From assembly GCA_965223075.1 (NCBI GenBank), contig OZ244986.1, positions 3,204,462 through 3,268,461 on the forward strand: DNA of 64,000 bases, written 5' to 3'. This stretch comes from Candidatus Marinacidobacterium sp. Its GTDB lineage: Bacteria > Acidobacteriota > Vicinamibacteria > Marinacidobacterales > Marinacidobacteraceae. Within the stretch, counting starts at the first letter, position 1. The number at the start of each line of letters is the position of its first letter. The notes beneath the pieces were generated by a model. It had not been told where the DNA came from. It made no database searches and was given only the letters and a program-made list of their open reading frames with translations. Below, one piece after another: positions 8,065-30,625 of the stretch. The translations under genes and the position numbers were made by a program.

Positions 8065-11000
8065 TTGAAATTCGAAGACCTTCACCTCGGCACGCGTTTG
8101 CGCGGAGTCACCCCCGGCGTGGTAACGGTCGTCCAGGCCGAGCTGCGTGGGGACACCGCTCTCAGCCTCACCTATAAGGACGAAGCCGGCGCCCTCCACG
8201 AGGTCCTGCTCTTCCGGGACGACGAATCACGCCTCGAACTCGCCGGTCCCTGCCCGATCCGTTCCTTCGCCGCCGACCCGAAACAGTTCCTCCTCGCGGC
8301 GGAGGCCGAGCGGATTCGCCTTGCCCATCTCTTCGATCCGTACCTCGCCGTCCACACCTCGAAGATCGAACCCCTGCCCCATCAGATCACTGCCGTCTAT
8401 GGCGCGATGCTCGACCGTCACCCTCTGCGCTTCCTCCTCGCTGACGACCCCGGCGCAGGAAAGACGATCATGGCCGGGCTTCTCATCAAGGAACTCGTGC
8501 TGCGGGGCGATCTGGAGCGCTGCCTGGTCGTCGCGCCGGGTTCGCTCGTCGAACAGTGGCAGGACGAACTCGGCGAGAAGTTCGATCTCGACTTTGCGAT
8601 CCTCAGTCGGGATCTGCTCGCCGCGTCTCGGAGCGGCGACCCCTTCTCCGAGCATCCCCGACTGATTGCCCGGCTCGACATGCTGAGCCGCGGCGAGGAT
8701 CTGCAGGACCTGATCCGAAGCGCCGAGGAATGGGACCTCGTGGTCTGCGACGAGGCGCACCGGATGTCGGCAAGTTTCTTCGGCGCCGAGGCGAAGTACA
8801 CGAAGCGGTACCAGCTCGGGCGTCTGCTCCGGGACCGGGCGCGCCACTTCCTGTTGATGACCGCAACGCCGCACAACGGCAAGGAAGAGGACTTCCAGCT
8901 TTTCCTCGCTCTCCTCGATCCGGATCGCTTCGAGGGCCGTTTCCGTCCCGGCGTGCACTCGAAGGATGCAAGCGACACGCTGCGTCGGCTGACCAAGGAA
9001 GAGCTCCGCCGCTTCGACGGGACCGCGCTCTTCCCCGAGCGCCGCGCCTACACCGCCCAGTACGAATTGAGTGAGCCGGAGACCACGCTCTACGAGGCGG
9101 TCACGCAGTACGTCCGTGAGGAGATGAACCGCGCCGAGCGGTTCGCCGCGACCGACGACCGCCGCCGGGTGAACGTGGGCTTCGCCCTGACGGTGCTGCA
9201 ACGCCGGCTCGCGTCTTCGCCGGCCGCGATCCACGAGAGCCTGAAGCGGCGGCTCGCGCGCATGGAGGATCGGTTGACGGCGATGCGGGAAGGTGTTCCG
9301 GCGCCGGCCCCCGCTCCCACTCTCGATCCGGATGACCTTGAGGAGGCGACAGAAGAGGAGATCGAGACAACCGAGGAGCGCGTGCTCGACCAGGCGACCG
9401 CCGCGGCCACCATGGAGGAGCTGGAGACGGAGATCGAGACGCTCCGGCGCCTGGAGAAACAGGCGCGGGCTCTGCGCCTCCGCAACACGGACACCAAGTG
9501 GCGCGAGTTGAACACCGTCCTCGACCACCCGCTGATGACCGCCGGGAACGGCCACCGGCGCAAGCTCATTGTCTTCACCGAACCCCGGGACACTCTCGAA
9601 TACCTCGCCGACCGGATTCGCACCCGGCTCGGAAGGCAGGATGCGGTGGTGGTGATCCACGGCGGCGTGTCGCGCGAGGCCCGGCGCGACGCGGTGGAAG
9701 CGTTCATGAACGACCCCGAGGTGGTCGTCATGGTGGCGAACGACGCGGCGGGCGAGGGCGTGAACCTGCAGCGCGCTCATCTGATGGTGAACTACGACTT
9801 GCCCTGGAACCCGAATCGGCTGGAACAGCGTTTCGGGCGCATCCACCGGATCGGCCAGACCGAGGTCTGTCACCTCTGGAATCTGGTGGCGAAGGACACT
9901 CGTGAAGGCGAGGTCTATGGGCGTCTGCTGGAGAAGCTCGATGTGGCGCGAAAGGCGCTCGGCGGCCGGGTGTATGACGTTCTCGGCCGCCTGTTCGAGG
10001 GCAAGGCCATGCGGGACCTGCTCCTCGACGCGATCCGCTACGGGGAGAGTCCGGAAGCCCGGAACCGTCTCTTCGAGAAGGTGGATCAGGCCGCCGCCAC
10101 GGAGCGGATCGGAGAGTTGCTCGCCGAACGCGCGCTGGTCCGCGAGCACCTGAGCCCGGCGACCGTCGCCGAGATCCGTGACCAGATGGCTCGGGCGAGT
10201 GCCCGGCGGCTGCAGCCGCACTTCATCCGCCGGTTCTTCCTGGAAGCCTTCCGGGCGCTTGGCGGCAGCGTCCATAGGCGCGAGAGCGGGCGGTTCGAGA
10301 TCGCGCGCGTCCCGACCGACATCCGCGACCGGCTGCCCAGGAACCTTCGTCCGGCGGTGCAGCCTCGTTACGAGCGGATCTGCTTCGAGCGGAAAGACGC
10401 GGCCGGTCCGCCGTTCGCGGCCTTCGTGTGCCCCGGCCATCCGCTGCTCGACCGGACGCTCGGTGCGATCCTCGACCGATCGAGGTCGGCCCTCGCCGAG
10501 GGCGCGGTGCTGGTGAACGAAACGGACGACCGTCCGGAGATACGCGCCGAATTTGCGGTGCGAACCGCCGTCACGGATGGCCGAAAGACGCGCTCGGGCT
10601 CGCGGCGCACCATCTCCGAGCGGCTCGCCTTCGTCGAACTGGACGCGAGTGGCCGGGTGGGGAACGGCGGCCCGGCGCCGCACCTCGATTGCCGGCCGAT
10701 CCGGGACGAGGAGCGGGCTCTCCTCGGAGACCGGTTGAGCGCGGAGTGGCTGGGCGGCGACGACGCGATCATGGACCATGCGGTCGGTGCGCTCGTGCCG
10801 GAACACCTCGGCGAAGTCCGGATGCGCCGGGTCGCCGAGATCGAAAAGACGCAACAACAGGTGTTCGAGCGTCTCTCCCGGGAACGGACCCACTGGGACA
10901 ACCGCGCCAACCAGCTCCGGGCGCGGGAGCGCGCGGGGAAGCAGGGCCGCATCGCAGCAGCGCAAGCAGCTCGACGCGCCGAGGAGCTCGACGCCCGCCT

Positions 11001-11532
11001 GGAGCGGAGGATGGCGGAACTGGACCGGGAGGGAGACATTGCAGCCGCGCCCCCGCAGGTCATCGGAGCCTCGCTCGTCGTCCCGGGTGGTCTGCTCCGC
11101 CGGCTCTCGGGTCCCGCGCCCTCCGAGGTCGCGAGCCCCGAGGGTCGGGCCGCCGTGGAGCAGATCGGGATGGCGGCTGTCATGGAGGCGGAACGCGGGC
11201 TCCGGCGGGAGCCGCGTGACGTGAGCGCCGAGAACCGGGGCTACGACATCGAGAGCCGCGACCCGGCGACCGGGCGGCTGCGCTTCATCGAGGTCAAGGG
11301 GAGGCGCGCCGACGCGACCACGGTCACGGTGACCCGCAACGAGACCGCTGTCGCCCTGAACTCACTCGACCAGTCCCACGACTACATCCTCGCCATTGTG
11401 CTCGTCGAGCAGGGGTACGCCCGGCGCACCGCCTACGTAACCGACCCGTTCCGCGCCGGCGTGGACGACACCACCGAAGCAGTCACCCACAACCTGAAGA
11501 GGCTGTTGGCGCGTTCGCAGCAACCGACCTGA
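8065..11532 (+). CDS. SNF2-family helicase with C-terminal DUF3883 (restriction-endonuclease-like) domain
   Basis: ATP-binding DDPGAGKT, DEAH box VVCDEAHRM, helicase-C motif RFGRIHRIGQ, C-terminal GYDIESRD...RFIEVKGR...HDYILAIVLV (DUF3883 pattern); TTG start at 8065 with no in-frame ATG upstream. Confidence 0.9.
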   Translation: MKFEDLHLGTRLRGVTPGVVTVVQAELRGDTALSLTYKDEAGALHEVLLFRDDESRLELAGPCPIRSFAADPKQFLLAAEAERIRLAHLFDPYLAVHTSKIEPLPHQITAVYGAMLDRHPLRFLLADDPGAGKTIMAGLLIKELVLRGDLERCLVVAPGSLVEQWQDELGEKFDLDFAILSRDLLAASRSGDPFSEHPRLIARLDMLSRGEDLQDLIRSAEEWDLVVCDEAHRMSASFFGAEAKYTKRYQLGRLLRDRARHFLLMTATPHNGKEEDFQLFLALLDPDRFEGRFRPGVHSKDASDTLRRLTKEELRRFDGTALFPERRAYTAQYELSEPETTLYEAVTQYVREEMNRAERFAATDDRRRVNVGFALTVLQRRLASSPAAIHESLKRRLARMEDRLTAMREGVPAPAPAPTLDPDDLEEATEEEIETTEERVLDQATAAATMEELETEIETLRRLEKQARALRLRNTDTKWRELNTVLDHPLMTAGNGHRRKLIVFTEPRDTLEYLADRIRTRLGRQDAVVVIHGGVSREARRDAVEAFMNDPEVVVMVANDAAGEGVNLQRAHLMVNYDLPWNPNRLEQRFGRIHRIGQTEVCHLWNLVAKDTREGEVYGRLLEKLDVARKALGGRVYDVLGRLFEGKAMRDLLLDAIRYGESPEARNRLFEKVDQAAATERIGELLAERALVREHLSPATVAEIRDQMARASARRLQPHFIRRFFLEAFRALGGSVHRRESGRFEIARVPTDIRDRLPRNLRPAVQPRYERICFERKDAAGPPFAAFVCPGHPLLDRTLGAILDRSRSALAEGAVLVNETDDRPEIRAEFAVRTAVTDGRKTRSGSRRTISERLAFVELDASGRVGNGGPAPHLDCRPIRDEERALLGDRLSAEWLGGDDAIMDHAVGALVPEHLGEVRMRRVAEIEKTQQQVFERLSRERTHWDNRANQLRARERAGKQGRIAAAQAARRAEELDARLERRMAELDREGDIAAAPPQVIGASLVVPGGLLRRLSGPAPSEVASPEGRAAVEQIGMAAVMEAERGLRREPRDVSAENRGYDIESRDPATGRLRFIEVKGRRADATTVTVTRNETAVALNSLDQSHDYILAIVLVEQGYARRTAYVTDPFRAGVDDTTEAVTHNLKRLLARSQQPT

Positions 11533-11666
11533 GTGACAGGCATCGAACGCCCGAACCTCCCAATCCACGCCCGAAAACCGCCCGGGAGCGCCTTTTGCCG
11601 GAGATATACTGCCGATCCGATGAGGACTTGGCCCTCCTGAGTTCAGCCCTGACGGAAGGGAGATCC

Positions 11667-12314
11667 ATGACGCGCGCCGAAATCGTCCTGGCGGCTATGG
11701 CTGCGGGGGGACGGGGCGTGTCCTATGACGGTCTCCGCATTCAGAAACTCCTGTTCCTGATTGATGTCGAGATATCGGACTTGTTGGAAGGACCGTATTT
11801 CGACTTCGCAGCCTACAACTATGGTCCGTTCGACAAGAGCCTCTACGAAGTACTTGGGGACCTGGAGCGTCGCGGAAACGTTGCGCAGGGACACGAGAAC
11901 GGTTATGCGGACTATTCCCTGACCTCGGAGGGCAGCGTGGAGGGCGGGCGCGTCCTGGGGACGCTTTCCCCAGAGGCGCGTCAGTTCATGGAGAGCGCGG
12001 CGAAGTGGCTCCGGCTGAGCACATTTCGTCGTATCCTGACCGTGATTTATCTCAAGTACCCCGAGATGGCCCGAAACAGCGTCGTGCCTGAACTCAAGGC
12101 TCCTTCGTTCCGGGCGGCGCACCGTTTCGTCCTCCCGTCATTCCTTTCAGGCGTCTCGCGCATCTTCGATTTCACCGGCAGCCTCGATCCACCCATCTAC
12201 CAGGAGCCGCCTGAGCAGGCGGATGCGATGGCCATTCGTCAGGATTGGGAGGCGGTCGGGGACGATCTCGAGCACGCGCTCGCGGCCTTCGGTCCGCCAG
12301 AGCCTGCACGGTGA
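11667..12314 (+). CDS. Panacea (DUF4065)-domain protein, putative antitoxin-type partner
   Basis: LRIQKLLFLIDVE...YNYGPFDKSLYEVL matches the Panacea KLQKLLYxAQ...YGPVxxxVY pattern; ATG at 11667 with AAGGGAG SD; GC ~58%, lower than flanks. Confidence 0.6.
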   Translation: MTRAEIVLAAMAAGGRGVSYDGLRIQKLLFLIDVEISDLLEGPYFDFAAYNYGPFDKSLYEVLGDLERRGNVAQGHENGYADYSLTSEGSVEGGRVLGTLSPEARQFMESAAKWLRLSTFRRILTVIYLKYPEMARNSVVPELKAPSFRAAHRFVLPSFLSGVSRIFDFTGSLDPPIYQEPPEQADAMAIRQDWEAVGDDLEHALAAFGPPEPAR

Positions 12315-12423
12315 CGAAGCGCCGGAACTCGCGCGCGAAGTCGCCTCCCGTCCGGAGATCGGTGGCGGCTGTTGTGGACCTGCCGCGTCCATCCAGCCAT
12401 CGGGCGAATGGAGAGATCGGAGC

Positions 12424-13272
12424 ATGAAGGCAAGTAACGGAATTGCCCGAAGTGCCCGAGCAGTATTCGTGGTTCACGGGCGCAATACCGAGGTGCGCGA
12501 CGCGATGTTCGAGTTTCTTCGCGCCGTTGATTTGCGTCCGATTGAGTGGTCAGAGGCGATCACGGGTACTGGCAGGCCGACCCCATCAATCCCTGAGATT
12601 CTGAGAGCCGCGTTTGCTCGGGCACGAGCCGTGGTCGTCCTGTTGACACCAGACGACAAGGCGGTGCTGAGAGAGCGATACTGGAAGGAAGGTGACCCGG
12701 ACGGCGAGCGCCGACCGTCAGGGCAAGCACGACCCAATGTGCTGTTCGAAGCCGGGATGGCCATGGCCTTCAAGCCAGAACGCACGATTCTCGTGCAGTT
12801 TGGAAGTTTGAGACCCTTTAGCGATATTGGCGGACTTCATGTCGTTCGCTTTCGTAATGACAGCCAGACGCGCCAGAACATCGCATCGAGGCTGGAGACG
12901 GCAGGTTGCCCGGTGAATCTGGCTGGTACGGATTGGCACACCGCGGGTGACTTCAATGATGCCGTGATGGACGACGACGAGGAGTCGTTCGACGAACAAG
13001 CGCCACAAGCCACTGGATGGCGGGAAGTTTCTGACTTCTCGGAACTCTCTGAGAACGCCAGGAGTGCGCTGCAGACAATGGCTGGTACGGATGCACCCTT
13101 AGTCAAATTCGCAAGTCTTGCTGATACTCGATTCCTCGTTGGCAGACGGTCCTTCTCCCCTCGAGTGTTTGAAGAGATGCTGGAAGCAAACTTGATTCGC
13201 GATGAGTCCGGAGAGGGAAAACGGTTCATATTGACCCACGCTGGATATCAGGCTGCCGATGGCCTCCAATAG
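12424..13272 (+). CDS. TIR-like domain protein (PF10137 'predicted nucleotide-binding protein containing TIR-like domain') with ~130-aa C-terminal extension
   Basis: AVFVVHGRN...AVVVLLTPDD...ARPNVLFEAGMAMA...RTILVQFG matches the PF10137 motif order (VFIVHGhD / LLTPDD / RPNVxFExGyf); ATG at 12424 with GGAGAG SD; GC ~55%. Confidence 0.6.
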   Translation: MKASNGIARSARAVFVVHGRNTEVRDAMFEFLRAVDLRPIEWSEAITGTGRPTPSIPEILRAAFARARAVVVLLTPDDKAVLRERYWKEGDPDGERRPSGQARPNVLFEAGMAMAFKPERTILVQFGSLRPFSDIGGLHVVRFRNDSQTRQNIASRLETAGCPVNLAGTDWHTAGDFNDAVMDDDEESFDEQAPQATGWREVSDFSELSENARSALQTMAGTDAPLVKFASLADTRFLVGRRSFSPRVFEEMLEANLIRDESGEGKRFILTHAGYQAADGLQ

Positions 13273-13292
13273 CTGTCAGGTGTGACGCGCTG

Positions 13293-16169
13293 GTGACAAC
13301 AGCCGAGCTCCGGACCGTCCCGAAGCTCATCGAGGTGGCGCTGCCGCTTGATGACATCAACCGGGCGGCGGCGCGGGAGAAGTCCATCCGACACGGCCAC
13401 CCGAGTACGCTGCATCTCTGGTGGGCGCGGCGTCCCCTGGCGGCGGCGCGAGCGGTGCTGTTCGCGCAACTGGTGGACGATCCGTCGGGGCGGCCGGAAC
13501 TCTTCCCGACCGAGGCGGAGCAGGACCGCGAGCGCGAGCGGCTATTCGGGATCCTGCGGAAGCTGGTGCTCTGGGAGAACACCACGAACGAGGAGGTCCT
13601 CGAAGCGGCGCGGGCGGAGATCCGGGAGTCGTGGCGCCGGACGTGCGCCGACAACGCGGACCACCCGCGGGCGGTGGAGCTCTTCGACCCGGAGAAGCTG
13701 CCGGCGTTCCATGACCCGTTTGCCGGGGGCGGCGCCATCCCGCTCGAGGCGCAGCGGCTCGGGCTGGAGGCGCACGCGAGCGACCTGAACCCGGTCGCGG
13801 TGCTCATCAACAAGGCGATGATCGAAATTCCGCCCCGGTTCGCGGGAAGGCCGCCGGTGAACCCGGAGGCGCGGGCGCGGAAGTCGGTGGCCGGACGGGA
13901 GTGGCGCGGGGCGGCGGGGCTCGCCGAGGACGTGCGCTACTACGGGAAGTGGATGCGGGACGAGGCGGAACGGCGGATCGGGCATCTCTACCCGAAGGCG
14001 CGCATCACGCCGGAGATGGTGGCGGACCGGCCGGACCTGGAGCGCTACAAGGGTCGGGACCTGACCGTGATCGCGTGGCTCTGGGCGCGGACGGTGCCGA
14101 GCCCCAACCCGGCGTTTTCGCACGTCCAGGTTCCGCTGGTTTCGACGTTCATGCTCTCGACGAAGAAGGGGAAGGAGGCGTACGTGGAGCCGGTGGTGGA
14201 GGGCGACTCTTTCCGGTTCGAGGTCCGGGTGGGAACGCCGCCGGATTTCGGAGCCTCGGAAAGAGGTACGAGCGCTGGAAAACGCAGTGGATTCCGATGT
14301 CTGATGTCCGGCTCGCCGATTACCTTCAATCACGTTCGCGTTGAGGGACGGGAGGGGCGGATCGGACAGCGACTCATGGCAGTCGTCGCGGCAGGCGATC
14401 GAAGTCGAATCTATCTGCCCCCCGCGGTGGTGCAACAAACGACGGTCAGCGAAACACCTTGGAATCCCGACGTTCGCTTGGAAGGCAAGTGTCGAGTCAA
14501 CGTCTCGAACTATGGCTTCGACGTTTACAGAGACCTCTTTACGTCGCGGCAGCTCGTCGCTCTGACGAATTTGTCTGACCTTGTCAGTGAGGCGGTGAAG
14601 CGAGCGCGTGCGGACGCGGCACAATCTTATCTGCCCGCCGACGACCGACCACTGGCCGAAGGCGGCACCGGCCCCTGCGCCTATGCCGAGGCGGTTGGGG
14701 TGTATCTCGGTTTGTCTGTCAGCCGGACGACCAACACCATCAATGCCCATACAGTTTGGTCTAAGGGTAGAGGACAGACCGTGAATCTGTTCAGCCGGCA
14801 GGCTATACCAATGACTTGGGATTTCCCCGAGGCGAGTCCCTTCTCGCGAGCGGCGGGTGACTTCGCCATGACTACGGATTCGGTAAGTAAAGTGCTCACT
14901 TACGTCTCAAGAGGCTTTGGAACTGCGGCGCAAGAAGACGCGCAGACACAAGTCAGATCGGTCTTGCGGATCGTCTCAACGGACCCGCCGTACTACGACA
15001 ACGTTGCCTATGCGGACCTGTCAGATTTCTTCTATGTGTGGCAACGGAGGACTCTTCGTCAGACTTACCCTGACATATTCGCCACGGTGTCAGTGCCCAA
15101 AGCCGACGAGCTAGTGGCGACCCCGTACCGTCACGCCAGCAAGCAAGCTGCAGAGACATTCTTCCTTAGGGGAATGACTCGGGCACTCCGGCGACTCTCA
15201 GAACAACCTCATGGTGCATTTCCGATCACCGTCTACTACGCGTTCAAACAGTCAGAAACGAAAACCGGAACCAGAACGGTGAGCACGGGTTGGGAGACGT
15301 TCTTGGACGCCGTTATCCGATCCGGATTCGCGATCTCCGGAACATGGCCAATGCGTACTGAAAGGCCGACGGGCGTAAAGGTTGCTTTCAACGCACTCGC
15401 GTCAAGCATCGTTCTCGCGTGTCGAAGACGACTCCCCAATGCGCCCTCGACTACCCGGCGCAGTTTCCTGGCTGCTCTCCACACGGAACTTCCAGAAGCC
15501 ATCACTCGCCTCCAGGACGAAAACATCGCGCCGGTAGATCTCGCGCAGGCCGCCATCGGCCCCGGCATGGCGATCTTCACCCGCTACTCGCGCGTCCTCG
15601 AAGCCGACGACTCCCCGATGACCGTTCGCATGGCCCTCGCCCTCATCAATGCGGAACTCGACCAGATCCTCTCCGCTCAGGACGCCGACTACGATCCCTG
15701 GACCCGCTTCGCGGTCACCTGGTTCGAGACGAAGGGCATGGACCCCGGCCCCTACGGTGACGCTGAGACCCTCGCCACCGCCCGCGGCGTGGCGGTCGAA
15801 GGCGTCGTCCACGCTGGCATCCTGAAGGCGACCGCCGGCCAGGCCCGCCTACTCCGCCGGGACGAACTCGATCCCGGCTGGTCCCCCGAAACCGACGACC
15901 GCCTCACTGTCTGGGAGTGCGCACAGCACGTCGCCCGCCGCCACGAAGACGGCGGCGAGATGTCCGCCGCCGCGCTGGTCGCCCGCCTCGGCGACCGCGC
16001 CGCCGCCGCCCACGCCCTCGCCTATCGCCTCTACGGCATCTGCGACCGGAAGAAACTCGCCGAAGAAGCCCTCGTCTGGAACGAACTCGTCCAACTCTGG
16101 CCCCGCCTCACTGAACTAGCCCCTACCGCCACCGCCCCGCGCCCCCAAGACCTTCTCAGCAGTAAATGA
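13293..16169 (+). CDS. DUF1156 (COG1743) Zn-ribbon-type adenine-specific DNA methyltransferase
   Basis: N-terminal LIEVALPLDDINRAAAREKSIRHGHPSTLHLWWARRP is the DUF1156 signature; DPPY catalytic motif (STDPPYYDNVAY); GTG start; the central ~1.2 kb has distinctly lower GC. Confidence 0.85.
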   Translation: MTTAELRTVPKLIEVALPLDDINRAAAREKSIRHGHPSTLHLWWARRPLAAARAVLFAQLVDDPSGRPELFPTEAEQDRERERLFGILRKLVLWENTTNEEVLEAARAEIRESWRRTCADNADHPRAVELFDPEKLPAFHDPFAGGGAIPLEAQRLGLEAHASDLNPVAVLINKAMIEIPPRFAGRPPVNPEARARKSVAGREWRGAAGLAEDVRYYGKWMRDEAERRIGHLYPKARITPEMVADRPDLERYKGRDLTVIAWLWARTVPSPNPAFSHVQVPLVSTFMLSTKKGKEAYVEPVVEGDSFRFEVRVGTPPDFGASERGTSAGKRSGFRCLMSGSPITFNHVRVEGREGRIGQRLMAVVAAGDRSRIYLPPAVVQQTTVSETPWNPDVRLEGKCRVNVSNYGFDVYRDLFTSRQLVALTNLSDLVSEAVKRARADAAQSYLPADDRPLAEGGTGPCAYAEAVGVYLGLSVSRTTNTINAHTVWSKGRGQTVNLFSRQAIPMTWDFPEASPFSRAAGDFAMTTDSVSKVLTYVSRGFGTAAQEDAQTQVRSVLRIVSTDPPYYDNVAYADLSDFFYVWQRRTLRQTYPDIFATVSVPKADELVATPYRHASKQAAETFFLRGMTRALRRLSEQPHGAFPITVYYAFKQSETKTGTRTVSTGWETFLDAVIRSGFAISGTWPMRTERPTGVKVAFNALASSIVLACRRRLPNAPSTTRRSFLAALHTELPEAITRLQDENIAPVDLAQAAIGPGMAIFTRYSRVLEADDSPMTVRMALALINAELDQILSAQDADYDPWTRFAVTWFETKGMDPGPYGDAETLATARGVAVEGVVHAGILKATAGQARLLRRDELDPGWSPETDDRLTVWECAQHVARRHEDGGEMSAAALVARLGDRAAAAHALAYRLYGICDRKKLAEEALVWNELVQLWPRLTELAPTATAPRPQDLLSSK

Positions 16170-16350
16170 GGATCCGGTTCTTGAACCCACCACCCGCTGA
16201 TCCGGCATTCTGGTGGGCCTCCGGACGCCGCGGCGCGGCGGAGTCCGTCCGGCCGAAGGGCGACTTGAGATCGCTTTTTTCGTCCATGGCTGCTGCGAGC
16301 GGTCGTTGAACGCCACGTCCTTAAATCATCAGACCATGGCCTAATGATCA

Positions 16351-17577
16351 ATGAGGGTCTCTCACGCAGTGAACACGACAGAAAAACGAGACGGTTTCTT
16401 CGCTCGCAGAGTCGCAGCGCTCTGTCAGGAAATAGAGAAGTGGGCACGCGCAAATGACCTATGGCATGACTGTGGGTTCTTCGACTATCTGGAGCGAGTA
16501 GATCCACTTCGGTGGGACGACACCGCGTACGCGGTGGTTTTGGCTGCAGAAGGCGACTTTGCCCGAGTGATCTTTGCCCGTGATTACTGGGCCGCAGATG
16601 GAGAGCGTGACTTACCGGAAGAGTTTGACCAAATCTTGCAAAGACACGGCTTTTGGTATGAACAATACGATCACACAGAAATGTGGATCTACCCTAACGG
16701 AAACTCGCTAGAGGCGGAATTCAGAGAGCACTTACGTTGGAAGTGGATATGCAATCTGATAAAACCCGACTTCGACTTGCTGAATGAGGAGCTATACGAT
16801 CACTTCGGAAAGACGCCTGATCGGCTACAGGCGTTGGACTGGCGAGACTTCGAGAAACTCGTTGCTGCCTTGTTGGAGTCTCAAGGGTACGAAGTGGAAC
16901 TTGGCCCAGGGAGCAACGATGGGGGCGTAGACATAAGGCTTCTTCAGAGGGATCCAGTTGGGGATATTCTGACTTTGGTTCAGGTCAAGCGGTACAGAAC
17001 TGATCGGCGAATACGGCTTGATGCTGTGCAGGCCCTACACGGAGCTATGACGGCGGAAGGTGCCCCCCGGAGCATGTTCGTTACAACATCCGAATATGCG
17101 GTGAGTGCACGAAAATTCGCGAATCGACACAATGTACCGATGACGTTCCATACGTCGGATGATGTTCAGCAGTGGTGCAGGGATGCCCATAACGGCATCG
17201 TGGAGGACAAGAGGACCCTCGTGTCCGAAAAAAATATCGCCAAGATTATCGAGAAAGCGCAGACAGACCACCGGCAAGTGCTTCACAGTCAAGGTGGCTA
17301 CAGTATGACAATGAACACGTTTGCCGTAGTACTAAAGGCGACGCGTACCTCCGCGCTGCTGTTGGAACTTCCGACACGGACGACCGAACATGACGGGTAC
17401 GGACAGCGAGGCCGCGAAGTGCCTGACTTGGGTCCAGCGCTGCCGCTTTCGCACCTTCGTGGAAACGAGATACGGAGGGCAAGAAGGACACCAGGCAGTG
17501 CTGGGACGTTCTGGGATGGTCATAGACGGTATGCGCCTTGGGGTGGCAAGCCCGTCCATTTCGACTACATGGATTGA
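16351..17577 (+). CDS. Mrr-like restriction endonuclease (Mrr_cat PD-(D/E)xK domain) with ~150-aa unknown N-domain
   Basis: FEKLVAALLESQGYEVELGPGSNDGGVDIRLL...LVQVKRY matches the Mrr catalytic core; GC ~52% versus ~70% flanks; AT-rich upstream (ttaaatcatcagacc); the 3' ~280 nt return to high GC and low-complexity translation, so the true stop is uncertain. Confidence 0.6.
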   Translation: MRVSHAVNTTEKRDGFFARRVAALCQEIEKWARANDLWHDCGFFDYLERVDPLRWDDTAYAVVLAAEGDFARVIFARDYWAADGERDLPEEFDQILQRHGFWYEQYDHTEMWIYPNGNSLEAEFREHLRWKWICNLIKPDFDLLNEELYDHFGKTPDRLQALDWRDFEKLVAALLESQGYEVELGPGSNDGGVDIRLLQRDPVGDILTLVQVKRYRTDRRIRLDAVQALHGAMTAEGAPRSMFVTTSEYAVSARKFANRHNVPMTFHTSDDVQQWCRDAHNGIVEDKRTLVSEKNIAKIIEKAQTDHRQVLHSQGGYSMTMNTFAVVLKATRTSALLLELPTRTTEHDGYGQRGREVPDLGPALPLSHLRGNEIRRARRTPGSAGTFWDGHRRYAPWGGKPVHFDYMD

Positions 17578-17750
17578 CTTGCGGATTCAGCGTCCGGACC
17601 TGGGCGCGGTTTTCGCCCTTTGCGATGCTGGCGATGCCGAGCTGGAGGTCGGCGGTCTCTTGGCTGTCCCGTCACCCTCGTTGACCGGCGTTCCCCCCTC
17701 GAGCATGCCCGGCTTGGCCGGGGTACCGGGAGCGGGTACGCTGGCGTGAA

Positions 17751-21032
<3,282 letters not shown>

Positions 21033-21045
21033 GGGAGGAAAACCG

Positions 21046-21321
21046 ATGCGCGGTGTGCTGATCGAGATTGGCCAGAGGGCCGCCGATTTCGTCCGGATGG
21101 CGCTGCGCCAGGTCCTCCTTCGGCGGCGGGAGCCGTCCGCGGTGCGGCTCCCGAATGCGGAAACCATTGCGGCGTTGAACGAGCCTACGCACAGCCTGAA
21201 GCGGTTCGATTCGGTGGAGGATCTGTTCGCGGACATCAAGGCCGGTACGTCCGGTTCGCGGGCCGGAGCGGGGAGAACTGCGCGAAACCCCCACGGGAAA
21301 AACATCTGTGGTGGGTGCTGA
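21046..21321 (+). CDS. DinJ/RelB-like antitoxin-fold small protein
   Basis: ADFVRMALRQVLL...PNAETIAALNE...DSVEDLFADI parallels E. coli DinJ (SDLVRITLTKV...PNQLTIQSIKN...DADDLFDKL); GGGAGG SD 8 nt upstream of the ATG; begins 14 nt after the DUF499 stop. Confidence 0.5.
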   Translation: MRGVLIEIGQRAADFVRMALRQVLLRRREPSAVRLPNAETIAALNEPTHSLKRFDSVEDLFADIKAGTSGSRAGAGRTARNPHGKNICGGC

Positions 21322-21787
21322 ACGGGCCAGCCTGATTCTGGTGGGATGCGTCAAACGCAAGCGCAGTCAGTCATGTGCCGCCCGGGACCTTTACGATGAG
21401 TCGCCGCTCTGGCGCGGCCGACGGGCATACGCCGAACGCTCCGGCGCGCCCTGGTACATCCTGAGCGCCAAACACGGTCTGTTGGCCCCGAACGCCTGGA
21501 TCGGACCGTATGACCTGGCGCTGAAGCACCTCAAGCGGGAAGAACGCCGAGACTGGTCGCGGAACGTGCTCGACGAACTCCGCGCCCGGTTCCCGACGCT
21601 CACTGGCAAGATGGTGGAGTGCCACGCAGGCAAGGACTATTTGGAAAACGGGCTGGAGGAGGGGCTGCGGAAAGCGGGCGCCGTCGTCCGCCGACCCCTG
21701 GCAGGTGTGGGAATCGGCGTCCAACTCCGTTGGTACCGCGTGCAGTCAGACGCATCCGGCGCCGGAGGGAGAAAGAGAGATGGCTGA
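21308..21787 (+). CDS. Small conserved protein, DUF6884-like (tentative)
   Basis: LILVGCVKRKR...ARDLY...WYILSAKHGLL...PYDL resembles the SCSxxK / ILSAKYGL pattern of DUF6884-type proteins; GTG start overlapping the DinJ-like stop by 14 nt. Confidence 0.45.
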   Translation: MVGAERASLILVGCVKRKRSQSCAARDLYDESPLWRGRRAYAERSGAPWYILSAKHGLLAPNAWIGPYDLALKHLKREERRDWSRNVLDELRARFPTLTGKMVECHAGKDYLENGLEEGLRKAGAVVRRPLAGVGIGVQLRWYRVQSDASGAGGRKRDG

Positions 21788-22682
21788 TGCGGCCCGGCTG
21801 GCGGAGTTGATCAGCGAGGACTTCTACGGAGGTAACCTGGACTTCAACACGAGGAAGCCCGGGAGCGATGACTGGTCGAACCTGCCGGAAGTCGAGGCGA
21901 CGGACAGGATGCCGCCGACGGACGCGGCAGTCGCCACCGATGGGCTCCGCGATGACCATGTGACCGGACGGACAGTGCGTTTGTTCCTGACCTTTGTCGC
22001 GGCGGTGGACAAGATGCGGGATGCGACGCAACTGTGGCGCGCGGCGGGCAATCTGTTCCGGACGAACCCGGAAGTCTTCGACCCTGCGGTCGTGTCCTCC
22101 ATGTCGTTGGAGACGCTGCGGAAACTGCTCTCCAACAGCCGCGTGACCCGGTACCCCGATCGGCAAGCCCGGGCTTGGCGGACGATTGCCGCGAGTCTCT
22201 CCGCACGGAACGGTCCGGTGTGCCGGGTGGTGGATTCGGGCTATGGAGATGCCGCGGAATTGCTCAAGGACGTCCGGAGCCGCGACCGACACGGCCAGAC
22301 GCGATTCCCGGAGCTTCGCGGCGACAAGATCAGACTGATGTGGATTCGGATGATGGCGGAGCCGGGCAAAGCGCGCATTCGCCGTCTGGACACCGTTCCG
22401 GTCGCGGTGGATGTGCAGGTTCGCCGCGTGACCGAGAACTTGGGCGTGACCGATACCCGCGGCCCGGCACTCAACAACAGGATCAAGAAGGAGATTCAGA
22501 ACGCTTGGTCTGCCGCCGTCGCCAATGCCCGGATCGGCGGTCCAGAACGCATCGCCGGGACCTGCTCGGCGCTCGATCCGGCGCTCTGGTTCTACGGCAA
22601 ACACGGCTGCAGCCACTGCGAAAGCGCGAAACGACAGGTCCGCTTTGGCCGGGCCTGCGACTCTTGCCGGTTTCAGATTTAG
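21780..22682 (+). CDS. HhH-GPD (endonuclease III-like) DNA glycosylase-like protein with C-terminal Cys4 cluster
   Basis: VAVDVQVRRVTENLG parallels EndoIII VDTHVFRV around the catalytic Asp; C-terminal C-x2-C-x12-C-x2-C; ATG at 21780 overlapping the upstream stop by 8 nt, with SD GGAGGGAG. Confidence 0.45.
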   Translation: MADAARLAELISEDFYGGNLDFNTRKPGSDDWSNLPEVEATDRMPPTDAAVATDGLRDDHVTGRTVRLFLTFVAAVDKMRDATQLWRAAGNLFRTNPEVFDPAVVSSMSLETLRKLLSNSRVTRYPDRQARAWRTIAASLSARNGPVCRVVDSGYGDAAELLKDVRSRDRHGQTRFPELRGDKIRLMWIRMMAEPGKARIRRLDTVPVAVDVQVRRVTENLGVTDTRGPALNNRIKKEIQNAWSAAVANARIGGPERIAGTCSALDPALWFYGKHGCSHCESAKRQVRFGRACDSCRFQI

Positions 22683-22740
22683 GTGCCATCGGGGTGGGCG
22701 CGATACGCCCCGATCCCGGCTGATGCGCCATCCATTCCAG

Positions 22741-22887
22741 TAGCGATTCGCGGTTTCGCCCGCCTTCGGCGCGCGATGCCGGCCGGAGGCCGGCGTTCCA
22801 AGCCGTCCCCGCGCTTCTTCACAATCGGGGGGACGCGGTTTCGCGGCCCTCCGGGCCGCGGTGCCGGTGTGAACACCGGCGTTCCCT
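22741..22887. repeat. REP-like repeat units in minus orientation
   Basis: GCCGGCCGGAGGCCGGCGTTCCAAGCCGTCCCCGCGCTTCTTC and GCCGGTGTGAACACCGGCGTTCCC hairpins. Confidence 0.8.
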
Positions 22888-30553: not shown

Positions 30554-30625
30554 GCGCGGTTAGCTCAGTGGGAGAGCGCCTGCCTTACACGCAGGTGGTC
30601 GCAGGTTCAAATCCTGCACCGCGCA
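30554..30625 (+). tRNA. tRNA-Val(UAC): tRNA-Val (anticodon TAC)
   Basis: Folded manually: acceptor stem GCGCGGT/ACCGCGC, D-stem GCTC/GAGC, anticodon stem CCTGC/GCAGG with loop CTTACAC, T-arm GCAGG-TTCAAAT-CCTGC, discriminator A; CCA not encoded. Confidence 0.85.

What the first reader, a model, noticed from the sequence alone, without database searches (positions are those of the whole stretch)
16170..17750. Mrr-like restriction endonuclease cassette (GC ~52%) with its own AT-rich upstream region, inserted between methylase and HEPN-DUF499 ATPase
There is a sharp compositional discontinuity. The protein has a clear Mrr catalytic core preceded by an unassigned ~150-aa N-domain. The 3' ~280 nt reverts to host-like GC with implausible low-complexity translation, suggesting the cassette replaced or fused with resident sequence. 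A modification-dependent nuclease inside a methylation-based system is an unusual combination.
Basis: partly seen in the sequence, partly recalled or inferred. Interest (0 to 1): 0.6.

Follow-up and report, generated by a model that had tools for sequence, protein, structure and literature searches.

The report
Nuclease gene parked inside Hma defence operon
A complete, horizontally acquired nuclease gene of unknown trigger sits in a known cargo slot between two genes of an Hma (BREX-related) anti-phage system; such embedding has already been described, so this is an ordinary new example, not a new kind of system.

Summary
The core observation holds. Window 16351-17577 (+) is an intact 408-aa gene with an Mrr-type PD-(D/E)xK nuclease core (aa 159-276). 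It is the lowest-GC 1.2 kb of the 64-kb window (53.7% against 66.5%, z = -3.7). It lies between hmaB (DUF1156 methylase) and hmaC (HEPN-DUF499 ATPase) of an Hma / "Type-1 BREX-related" system.

The gene stops at 17577, and its last 130 residues are a domain conserved to the final Asp in about 100 full-length homologues. Bases 17578-17750 are non-coding.

The "insert" reading is supported:
- The same cassette, still low-GC and under purifying selection (dN/dS 0.16), is in the closest relative only.
- The next three relatives (HmaB 75-86% identical) and 80 distant Hma loci carry other cargo or none in that slot.
- The slot's right border is a conserved 40-nt hmaC leader.

The family also occurs alone on plasmids, ICEs and integrase islands, and inside type I R-M operons. 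It has no conserved partner gene.

Embedding in Hma is published: 62.7% and about 66.5% of loci carry embedded genes, including type IV GmrSD. The combination is therefore not unusual. Modification dependence is untested. The flanking N and C domains match no Pfam family, and the C domain matches no solved fold. This is a new member of a known kind.

The parts
16351..17577 (+). Intact 408-aa gene of an uncharacterised three-domain nuclease family. A possible alternative start is GTG 16366, preceded by GAGGG.
   Evidence: ORF list. 204 homologues, most about 400 aa with 94-100% coverage. Alignments A1 and A2 are conserved from end to end. dN/dS against L001 is 0.158 with dS 0.40, the same as hmaC.
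16351..16824 (+). N-terminal domain (aa 1-158), alpha/beta, unknown family. W31, W38, W130, W132 and C134 are invariant.
   Evidence: No Pfam hit at E <= 10 and none consistent among 102 members. pLDDT is mostly 80-98. A profile search of 1.84 billion proteins finds 210 clusters. These are the same architecture plus free-standing proteins of about 105-112 aa.
16825..17178 (+). Mrr_cat PD-(D/E)xK nuclease core (aa 159-276). The catalytic-type residues E168, D194 and Q211-x-K213 are conserved.
17179..17574 (+). C-terminal beta-rich domain (aa 277-408) with the motif HDGYGQRGxEVP and an invariant C-terminal Asp. Fold unassigned.
16170..16350 (+). Upstream spacer of the cassette. The distal 85 nt are GC-rich. 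The proximal 96 nt (16255-16350) have 52% GC and are nearly identical in L001, so they are a candidate regulatory region.
   Evidence: No sigma-70 consensus. No RNA structure stronger than in shuffled sequence.
17578..17710 (.). Lineage-specific non-coding spacer downstream of the nuclease gene. It is shared only with L001.
   Evidence: About 25% divergent from L001 with no codon-position bias. No homology to L180, L181 or L182. Fold z-scores are near 0.
17711..17750 (+). Conserved hmaC leader. This is the right-hand border of the cargo slot.
   Evidence: Near-identical in the window, L001, L181 and L182, and its first ~20 nt in L180 (the stretch I gave for L180 stopped there), although four different cargos precede it. 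blastn homology to L180-L182 resumes at 17707-17713.
13293..16169 (+). hmaB, the DUF1156 N6-adenine methyltransferase. Its last ~20-40 nt form the left-hand border of the slot. The central part is compositionally foreign.
   Evidence: PADLOC HmaB E = 0; Pfam DUF1156. Homology to L180-L182 ends at 16129-16153. GC3 mosaic.
17751..21032 (+). hmaC, a HEPN_Swt1-fused DUF499 AAA+ ATPase.
   Evidence: A HEPN match lies directly upstream of the DUF499 core in almost all surveyed loci that contain an HmaC match.
8065..11532 (+). hmaA, an SNF2 helicase with a C-terminal NOV_C (PD-(D/E)xK) nuclease. It is the primary effector of the host system and is present and intact.
   Evidence: PADLOC HmaA E = 0; Pfam SNF2-rel_dom, Helicase_C and NOV_C. 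Antiphage role of HmaA: PMC11232893.
11595..13272 (+). Cargo in the other slot (hmaA-hmaB): a 239-aa ORF plus a 349-aa TIR protein. Also low-GC.
   Evidence: Pfam CAP12-PCTIR_TIR E = 3.6e-26; PADLOC PDC-S35. GC 0.59-0.61. Replaced by unrelated genes in L001.
21033..22755 (+). Third cargo segment, after hmaC: a DUF6884 protein (21308-21787) plus a 325-aa ORF. Absent from L001 and present in L181.
   Evidence: Pfam DUF6884 E = 1.7e-42; PADLOC PDC-M57A. blastn comparisons. L181 gene list.

Best explanation
The feature is a self-contained, single-gene nuclease defence cassette. It was acquired horizontally and now occupies the hmaB-hmaC cargo slot of an Hma ('Type-1 BREX-related') anti-phage operon.

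Shown:
- The gene is complete, under purifying selection and compositionally foreign.
- It has been co-inherited with hmaB and hmaC since the split from the nearest sampled relative.
- The slot lies between the 3' end of hmaB and a conserved 40-nt hmaC leader. It holds different genes in related loci, and the locus as a whole is a recombination mosaic.

Inferred, on how it got there: cassettes are exchanged by homologous recombination between Hma loci, with the conserved core genes acting as homology arms. No integrase, transposase or flanking repeats are present.

Inferred, on how it works:
- The protein is an active Mg2+-dependent PD-(D/E)xK DNA endonuclease.
- Its uncharacterised N- and C-terminal domains decide when or what it cuts.
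- It needs no partner gene and acts as an extra defence layer next to Hma. It is probably co-transcribed with the operon.

Leading sub-hypothesis (about 40% of the weight, unproven): it is type IV-like. It would cut DNA carrying a modification or feature that the host lacks, and so catch phages that escape the methylation-based Hma system, as BrxU/GmrSD does in BREX.
For: Integrity and selection:
- Full-length homologues exist, and conservation runs to the last residue.
- dN/dS is 0.158 overall: N domain 0.10, core 0.27, C domain 0.16. dS is 0.40, against 0.37 for hmaC.

Foreign origin:
- GC z = -3.7.
- GC3 is 0.58 against 0.85-0.88 for the core genes.
- In 11 of 15 loci, family members are at least 5.5 GC points below their surroundings.

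Variable slot:
- L001 has the same cassette inside one collinear 7.7-kb block of 89.5% identity.
- L180, L181 and L182 (HmaB 86, 84 and 75% identical) have unrelated cargo there.
- Homology breaks at 16129-16153 and resumes at 17707-17713.
- The hmaB-hmaC gap is occupied in 31 of 64 surveyed Hma loci and the hmaA-hmaB gap in 50 of 59. None has this family in the gap.
- Cargo elsewhere includes AAA_21+DUF4276, Schlafen/AlbA_2, GmrSD and DUF4143 ATPases.
- Ancestry is mosaic: HmaA is 93% identical to L182 but 84.6% to L001.
- No flanking repeats.

Autonomy:
- The family sits inside a type I R-M operon (L005) and next to one (L006).
- It also sits beside methyltransferases (L009), in an IS-rich island (L004), on an integrase island (L090-L093) and on ICEs (L094, L095).
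- It is on conjugative plasmids, including C. sphaeroides 2.4.1 pDE, and on 3 viral contigs.
- A Pfam tally of 99 neighbouring ORFs shows no recurrent partner; the most frequent family occurs 3 times.

Active nuclease:
- Catalytic-type residues are conserved.

Published precedent:
- 62.7% of Hma systems carry embedded genes. Seven of nine tested embedded candidates defend against phage, and 96.7% of embedded genes are co-oriented with the host system (10.1101/2024.01.29.577857).
- About 66.5% of hma systems have insertions (PMC11232893).
- PD-(D/E)xK REases are the most prevalent auxiliary effectors in BREX and BR loci (PMC12839542).
Against: - No experiment exists on any member of this family. 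Defence, nuclease activity and trigger are all inferred.
- The N and C domains match no Pfam family, and neither was matched to a known reader or sensor fold. The N domain was never searched as a separate model. The type IV-like sub-hypothesis therefore rests on analogy.
- A broad m6A-dependent enzyme like E. coli Mrr would be self-toxic next to an N6-adenine methylase. Stable co-inheritance means that any modification it targets must differ from HmaB's.
- No promoter or terminator was detected on either side. Independent expression is therefore unproven, and functional coupling to Hma cannot be excluded.
- The recombination route is inferred from mosaicism and was not observed directly.
Confidence: 0.72

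Rival explanations
1. It is a sensor-activated (abortive-infection or Shedu-like) nuclease, not a modification-dependent one. The N and/or C domain keeps the nuclease off until a phage protein, a DNA end or a replication intermediate is sensed. It then degrades DNA indiscriminately.
For: - It is a single gene with no immunity or methylase partner.
- Two conserved non-catalytic domains of unknown fold flank the nuclease.
- The C-terminal Asp is invariant and the tail is highly conserved, which would fit an autoinhibitory plug (inference).
- The wider family is mostly not next to methyltransferases.
Against: - It has no similarity to Shedu DUF4263 or to CARF/SAVED sensor domains.
- The closest nuclease-domain matches are restriction-type enzymes: AF1548, AspBHI, MspJI and FokI.
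- Nothing in the data identifies a trigger.
Confidence: 0.3
2. It is a functionally integrated auxiliary or 'backup' effector of this particular Hma system. It would be recruited or licensed by HmaC or HmaA, for example to extend damage after HmaA nicking, as in the model proposed for BREX and BR loci.
For: - It is on the same strand as the hma genes, with no detectable terminator between hmaB, the gene and hmaC.
- It has been co-inherited with hmaB and hmaC at the same synonymous divergence.
- The general model comes from PMC12839542.
Against: - It is absent from 80 surveyed Hma loci and from the three next-closest loci.
- The family occurs in many contexts with no Hma genes.
- HmaA here keeps its own NOV_C nuclease, so there is nothing to compensate for.
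Confidence: 0.12
3. It is a decaying or chimeric remnant. The cassette is 3'-truncated or fused to resident sequence and is no longer functional.
For: GC rises after 17577, and an out-of-frame ORF (17390-17749) gives a low-complexity translation.
Against: - The ORF has the same length as its homologues and ends on the family's invariant terminal Asp.
- The C domain has dN/dS 0.16.
- The overlapping ORF shows no coding signature.
- The AF2 C-domain model is confident, with pLDDT 87.6.
Confidence: 0.02
4. It has a non-defence role on mobile elements, such as an entry-exclusion, addiction or DNA-processing nuclease of plasmids and ICEs. It would sit in the Hma slot only as a hitch-hiker.
For: It is often found on conjugative plasmids and ICEs, near relaxase and T4SS genes. 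It has no conserved defence partner.
Against: It is embedded in Hma and in type I R-M operons, and it lies next to other defence genes such as AAA_13, TIR, GmrSD and toxin-antitoxin modules. Published tests show that most Hma-embedded genes are defences (10.1101/2024.01.29.577857).
Confidence: 0.08

Closest known systems
Hma-embedded defence cassettes ('guilt by embedding', HEC/PDC candidates; bioRxiv 10.1101/2024.01.29.577857; also PMC11232893)
   Same: A gene nested between hma core genes on the same strand. The cargo varies between related loci, and homologues also occur outside Hma. My own survey agrees on the frequency: 50/59 and 31/64 gaps occupied.
   Different: This three-domain protein family was not mentioned in the passages I searched: a term search for 'Mrr' and 'PDC-S02' found nothing in that paper. 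It was not among the cargo clusters of 80 other Hma loci. No member has been tested.
BrxU / GmrSD-like type IV enzymes embedded in BREX, Hma and type I R-M loci
   Same: A single-protein nuclease embedded in a methylation-based system, proposed to catch phages with modified DNA. I saw GmrSD genes in the Hma gaps here as well.
   Different: The fold and domains differ. GmrSD has DUF262 and an HNH-type DUF1524, whereas this protein has an Mrr_cat PD-(D/E)xK core. It has no NTPase domain, and modification dependence is unproven.
E. coli Mrr (type IV restriction endonuclease)
   Same: Mrr_cat catalytic domain (PF04471, E = 3e-29). A solitary nuclease with no cognate methylase. From my own knowledge, mrr sits beside hsdRMS in E. 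coli K-12.
   Different: It lacks the Mrr_N winged-helix domain. It has an unrelated 158-aa N domain and an extra 130-aa C domain. It coexists stably with an N6-adenine methylase.
MspJI / AspBHI family (modification-dependent, SRA-like reader plus Mrr-like nuclease)
PADLOC candidate PDC-S02 and mREase_IV models
   Same: These are the best PADLOC hits (E = 5.7e-15 and 1.6e-9).
   Different: The alignments cover only the ~100-residue nuclease core (protein 158-262 against profile 192-293 of 334). The N and C domains are not covered, so it is not the same family.

Membership tests
Hma / Type-1 BREX-related system (the host locus) | SNF2 helicase with a C-terminal PD-(D/E)xK (NOV_C) nuclease, a DUF1156 N6-MTase and a DUF499 AAA+ ATPase (often HEPN-fused), co-oriented | tested here: met
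   PADLOC HmaA, HmaB and HmaC with E = 0, 0 and 2.7e-304. Pfam SNF2-rel_dom+NOV_C, DUF1156 and HEPN_Swt1+DUF499.
Hma / Type-1 BR core component (the 408-aa gene itself) | Present at the same position across Hma loci | tested here: not met
   Present only in the window and L001. Absent from the gap in 80 genome loci and in L180, L181 and L182.
Hma-embedded defence cassette | Lies between hma core genes on the same strand, in a slot whose content varies among related loci | tested here: met
Hma-embedded defence cassette | Homologues also occur independently of Hma, in defence or mobile-element contexts | tested here: met
Hma-embedded defence cassette | Confers anti-phage protection | not testable with these tools
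   Needs cloning and phage challenge.
Mrr-type type IV restriction endonuclease | Mrr_cat PD-(D/E)xK domain with catalytic residues | tested here: met
Mrr-type type IV restriction endonuclease | N-terminal Mrr_N winged-helix DNA-binding domain | tested here: not met
   No Pfam hit in aa 1-158 at E <= 10. None in 102 family members at E <= 1.
Mrr-type type IV restriction endonuclease | Cleavage depends on methylated or otherwise modified DNA | not testable with these tools
   A biochemical property. Only indirect arguments are available.
MspJI/AspBHI-like type IV enzymes | SRA-like modified-base-flipping reader domain | tested here: inconclusive
PADLOC PDC-S02 | Full-length match to the family profile | tested here: not met
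   Only the nuclease core aligns (protein 158-261, profile 192-293 of 334).
Shedu (SduA, DUF4263) | DUF4263 nuclease domain with the Shedu-type N-terminal sensor | tested here: not met

The most novel reading that the evidence does not exclude
The 408-aa protein is the founding, untested member of a new single-gene anti-phage nuclease family. In this family an Mrr-type core is gated by two previously undescribed domains. One is an N-terminal alpha/beta module that also exists as free-standing ~110-aa proteins. The other is a C-terminal beta-rich module with an HDGYGQRGxEVP motif and an invariant terminal Asp. Its trigger, whether a new DNA-modification reader or a new infection sensor, would differ from all characterised type IV, Shedu or CBASS-type nucleases.
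Probability: 0.3. Interest if true: 0.5.

Novelty: new member of a known kind. Interest (0 to 1): 0.25.

Why it matters
For the scan, this shows that a striking GC break inside a defence operon is explained by a documented process: cargo exchange in Hma gaps. The 3' 'anomaly' came from reading past the true stop codon.

For biology, the modest value is threefold:
- It gives a clean, sequence-resolved example of the slot borders (the hmaB 3' end and a conserved 40-nt hmaC leader). It also shows segment-wise mosaicism, which points to homologous recombination between Hma loci as the exchange mechanism.
- It flags a widespread nuclease family (more than 200 sequence clusters). The family is generically annotated as 'restriction endonuclease', has two unassigned domains and no experimental data, and occurs in tractable hosts such as the Cereibacter sphaeroides 2.4.1 plasmid pDE. 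That makes it a reasonable candidate for defence testing.
- It shows one Hma locus carrying three separate cargo segments: TIR, this nuclease and DUF6884.

Tried and rejected
- Profile search of the family (A1) against all PDB sequences: 0 hits at E <= 1.
- Pfam on the isolated N and C domains at E <= 10: nothing. Pfam on 102 members at E <= 1: only Mrr-type families were consistent. A weak TPK_catalytic hit in 17 members was treated as noise.
- C-domain profile search for other architectures: 17 short hits. I read all of them as fragments or internal-Met gene calls of the same family (for example 147-aa proteins starting at the conserved M-x-LYVSDDV). I did not take them as evidence of a free-standing C domain. 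L163 holds a truncated remnant.
- Two giant NHL/Kelch/fn3 repeat proteins hit by the N-domain profile were dismissed as spurious repeat matches.
- Search for free-standing N-domain homologues on viral contigs, to test an anti-defence mimic idea: none.
- Promoter and terminator scan of 15900-18000: 0 promoters and 1 terminator-like site inside the ORF, which is fewer than expected by chance.
- RNA folding of both spacers in the window and L001: z-scores from -1.45 to +0.54, so no structured element.
- Repeat search for target-site duplications or terminal inverted repeats around the cassette: only short chance-level matches.
- The small ORF 17390/17516-17749, which is called as a gene on some public contigs, was rejected as coding.
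- Rfam scan of the window: only a tRNA at 30554-30625.
- The source organism could not be named. Cluster look-up gave no names.
Full report
**What is at the coordinates**

The window is high-GC (66.5%). A single long ORF lies between 16170 and 17750, at 16351-17577 on the + strand (408 aa).

- Pfam places an Mrr_cat PD-(D/E)xK nuclease domain at aa 159-276 (E = 3e-29). Weaker hits go to NA-iREase1 and Mrr_cat_2.
- PADLOC matches only this core, to PDC-S02 and mREase_IV models.
- The ORF has 53.7% GC and GC3 0.58. The neighbouring core genes have GC3 0.85-0.88.
- It is the lowest-GC 1.2-kb stretch of the whole window: z = -3.7 overall and -4.2 against sequence outside the island.
- The compositional break, the Mrr core and the unassigned N-terminal ~150 aa are therefore real.

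**The 3' end**

That is wrong.

- The protein search returned 204 homologues, most of them 390-420 aa with 94-100% coverage.
- In alignments of 23 and 102 sequences, conservation runs through the whole C-terminal third. It includes the motif HDGYGQRGxEVP, R376 and W397, and reaches the very last residue. D408 is invariant in A1 and at least 90% conserved in A2.
- Against the sister locus L001, the C domain has dN/dS 0.16 and the whole gene 0.158. hmaC has 0.141, with similar dS (0.40 and 0.37).
- The C domain has 56.6% GC, so it has not reverted to host GC.
- The low-complexity translation comes from an overlapping out-of-frame ORF (17390-17749). Its differences from L001 fall 17/17/13 over the three codon positions, so it is not coding.
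- Bases 17578-17750 form a GC-rich non-coding spacer.

**Anatomy of the protein**

An AlphaFold2 model built from 102 sequences has mean pLDDT 80, and the N and C domains are mostly above 90.

- The catalytic-type residues E168, D194 and Q211-x-K213 are invariant or nearly so. I therefore infer an active enzyme, not an inactive REase module.
- The N domain (aa 1-158) and the C domain (aa 277-408) have no Pfam match even at E <= 10.
- No consistent weak match appears among 102 members, and a family profile finds no PDB sequence match.
- An N-domain profile searched against 1.84 billion representatives finds 210 clusters. These are the same ~400-aa architecture, fragments of it, and a set of genuine free-standing ~105-112-aa proteins.

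**The surrounding system**

PADLOC and Pfam identify HmaA (8065-11532, an SNF2 helicase with a NOV_C nuclease), HmaB (13293-16169, a DUF1156 N6-MTase) and HmaC (17751-21032, HEPN_Swt1 + DUF499).

- This is the Hma system, recently renamed 'Type-1 BREX-related' (PMC12839542).
- HmaA has shown anti-T4 activity through its nuclease domain (PMC11232893).
- The HEPN-DUF499 fusion is the common form. PMC12839542 reports it in 1370 taxa, and I found a HEPN match directly upstream of the DUF499 core in almost all surveyed loci that contain an HmaC match.
- The window's locus carries three cargo segments:
  - a 239-aa ORF plus a TIR protein between hmaA and hmaB (11595-13272);
  - the nuclease between hmaB and hmaC;
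  - a DUF6884 protein plus a 325-aa ORF after hmaC (21033-22755).

**Insert or integral part?**

- The closest relative, L001 (nuclease 88% identical), has hmaB, the nuclease, the spacer and hmaC as one collinear 7.7-kb block of 89.5% nucleotide identity.
- L001 sits at the same chromosomal site, next to the same RND transporter. Its hmaA-hmaB cargo is completely different, and it lacks the post-hmaC segment.
- In L001 the nuclease gene is equally low in GC: 0.54 against 0.68 in the flanks.
- The next three relatives by HmaB identity carry unrelated genes in the hmaB-hmaC gap:
  - L180 (86%): 161-aa and 224-aa ORFs;
  - L181 (84%): a 286-aa ORF and a DUF1828 protein;
  - L182 (75%): a 2034-aa double-PIN-associated protein.
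- blastn shows homology to these three loci ending at 16129-16153 and resuming at 17707-17713.
- The resumption point is a ~40-nt leader, GGCTTGGCCGGGGTWCCGGGAGCGGGTACGCTGGCGTGAAATG. It is conserved in the window, L001, L181 and L182 despite different cargos. For L180 only its first ~20 nt fell inside the stretch I aligned.
- Among 80 further Hma loci from diverse phyla, the hmaA-hmaB gap is occupied (>300 nt) in 50 of 59 and the hmaB-hmaC gap in 31 of 64. None holds this nuclease family there.
- Recurrent cargo in those loci is AAA_21+DUF4276 pairs, Schlafen/AlbA_2-HATPase_c_4 proteins, GmrSD, AAA_14/DUF4143, AAA_15/DUF3696 and DUF488.
- The gene is therefore a lineage-specific occupant of a generic cargo slot.
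- I found no integrase, transposase or flanking repeat.
- The locus is mosaic instead: HmaA is 93% identical to L182 but 84.6% to L001, and hmaC plus DUF6884 is closest to L181. From this I infer exchange by homologous recombination between Hma loci, with the conserved core genes as arms.

**The family elsewhere**

- Homologues lie between hsdS and hsdR of a type I R-M operon (L005).
- They also lie downstream of another type I system beside an AAA_13 ATPase (L006), after two methyltransferases and a HATPase protein (L009), and in an IS-rich island (L004).
- Others sit at the end of an integrase island in Marinobacter-like contigs, on ICE-like regions and on three viral contigs.
- Fourteen plasmid records carry a full-length copy. 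These include C. sphaeroides 2.4.1 pDE and Phaeobacter inhibens pP88_b, where the gene is solitary and annotated only as 'restriction endonuclease'.
- A Pfam tally of 99 ORFs flanking 45 family members shows no recurrent partner. The most frequent families (AAA_21 and phage integrase) occur three times each.
- In 11 of 15 loci the gene is at least 5.5 GC points below its surroundings.
- This is the profile of an autonomous, frequently transferred single-gene module.

**Mechanism**

Shown:
- an intact, selected gene;
- a conserved nuclease active site;
- no partner gene;
- residence in a variable slot of a defence operon.

Inferred:
- It is a DNA endonuclease whose N and C domains control target choice or activation, and it adds a defence layer independent of Hma.
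- My leading sub-hypothesis is a type IV-like enzyme aimed at DNA features that the host lacks. Four points support it. It is a solitary nuclease with no methylase or immunity gene. Its nearest structural relatives include restriction-type and modification-dependent enzymes. Its closest clade sits in or beside methylation-based systems. The embedded GmrSD/BrxU case is a precedent (10.1101/2024.01.29.577857).
- Against this, no known reader domain is detectable. A broad m6A-dependent activity like that of E. coli Mrr would clash with HmaB.
- The main rival is a sensor-gated, Shedu-like or abortive-infection nuclease.
- A role as an integrated Hma backup effector is unlikely, given its absence from other Hma loci and its many Hma-free contexts. 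HmaA here also keeps its own nuclease.
- Expression is unresolved. The proximal 96 nt upstream (16255-16350, 52% GC) are almost identical in L001 and could be regulatory.
- No consensus promoter, terminator or stable RNA structure was found on either side. Co-transcription with the operon is therefore likely. Published data say that 96.7% of embedded genes are co-oriented with their host system.

**Comparison with what is known, and verdict**

- Embedding of defence genes in Hma is already described and quantified: 62.7% of 1,485 systems and 376 distinct cassettes, with seven of nine tested candidates active (10.1101/2024.01.29.577857).
- PMC11232893 reports insertions in about 66.5% of hma systems and names an 'insertion hotspot'.
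- PMC12839542 lists PD-(D/E)xK REases as the most prevalent auxiliary effectors in BREX and BR loci.
- The finding is thus a new instance of a known phenomenon.
- What remains open is the biology of this nuclease family, whose two flanking domains are unassigned and which nobody has tested.
- I rate it a new member of a known kind, with interest 0.25.

Noticed in passing
window 14190-15450 (inside hmaB 13293-16169): hmaB is compositionally mosaic. GC3 is 0.83-0.93 in codons 1-300 and 0.78-0.88 in codons 720-958, but 0.58-0.68 in codons 300-720. Homology to close relatives is lost inside this stretch (L180: 14246-14531; L182: 14247-14962). This looks like a swapped target-recognition module of the methylase.
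   Followed up: partly
window 8065-22755 compared with L001, L180, L181 and L182: The Hma locus is a recombination mosaic. hmaA is 93% identical (nt) to L182 but 84.6% to L001. The hmaB-nuclease-hmaC block is closest to L001 (89.5%). The block from hmaC through DUF6884 into the 325-aa ORF (17707-22233; L181's contig ends inside that ORF) is closest to L181 (87.6%).
   Followed up: partly
window 11595-13272: Cargo in the hmaA-hmaB gap: a 239-aa ORF (weak DarG / PDC-M19A hits) that overlaps a 349-aa TIR protein (PF10137 CAP12/PCTIR_TIR, PADLOC PDC-S35) by 92 nt. The 239-aa ORF is shared with L180 (~89% nt), but the TIR gene is not.
   Followed up: partly
window 21033-22755: A DUF6884 protein (21308-21787, PADLOC PDC-M57A) plus a 325-aa ORF with no family hit lie directly after hmaC. 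They are absent from L001. In L181, DUF6884 and the start of the following ORF are present (the contig ends there). This suggests a third, post-hmaC cargo position.
   Followed up: partly
window 17711-17753: A 40-nt leader, GGCTTGGCCGGGGTWCCGGGAGCGGGTACGCTGGCGTGAAATG, lies immediately upstream of the hmaC start. It is conserved in the window, L001, L181 and L182 (only its first ~20 nt were in the stretch aligned for L180), whatever the upstream cargo. It could be a translation or regulatory signal, or a recombination anchor.
   Followed up: partly
proteins P0345, P0355, P0356, P0363, P0366, P0376, P0381 and P0387 (not in the window): Free-standing ~105-112-aa proteins are homologous to the first ~105 residues of the nuclease's N domain. 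They have no Pfam family, and none was found on viral contigs. Their genomic context could not be examined.
   Followed up: partly
window 17560-17577 (C-terminus of the nuclease): The family nearly always ends ...F-(D/N)-x-x-D-stop (one subclade ...F-Y-x-D). The terminal Asp is invariant in 23 diverse sequences and at least 90% conserved in 102. An invariant C-terminal carboxylate might plug the active site or bind metal, but this is speculation.
   Followed up: no
window 16351-16368: The annotated ATG (16351) has no obvious Shine-Dalgarno sequence. An in-frame GTG at 16366 is preceded by GAGGG (16353-16357) and would bring the length closer to most homologues (~400 aa). In L001 the motif reads GAGAG.
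   Followed up: no
window 17390-17749 (+): A 119-aa ORF (called as 77 aa on some public contigs) overlaps the 3' end of the nuclease gene and ends 1 nt before the hmaC ATG. It is open in both the window and L001 but shows no coding substitution pattern, so it is spurious.
   Followed up: yes
L051 21276-21587 and L076 17427-17738: In two distant Hma loci, a different Mrr_cat-only protein (~36% identical over the core) lies downstream of hmaC. Mrr-type nucleases have therefore joined Hma loci more than once, at different positions.
   Followed up: no
window 30554-30625 (+): A single tRNA gene is the only Rfam match in the window. It is ~8 kb beyond the Hma island, and no link to the island was seen.
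   Followed up: no
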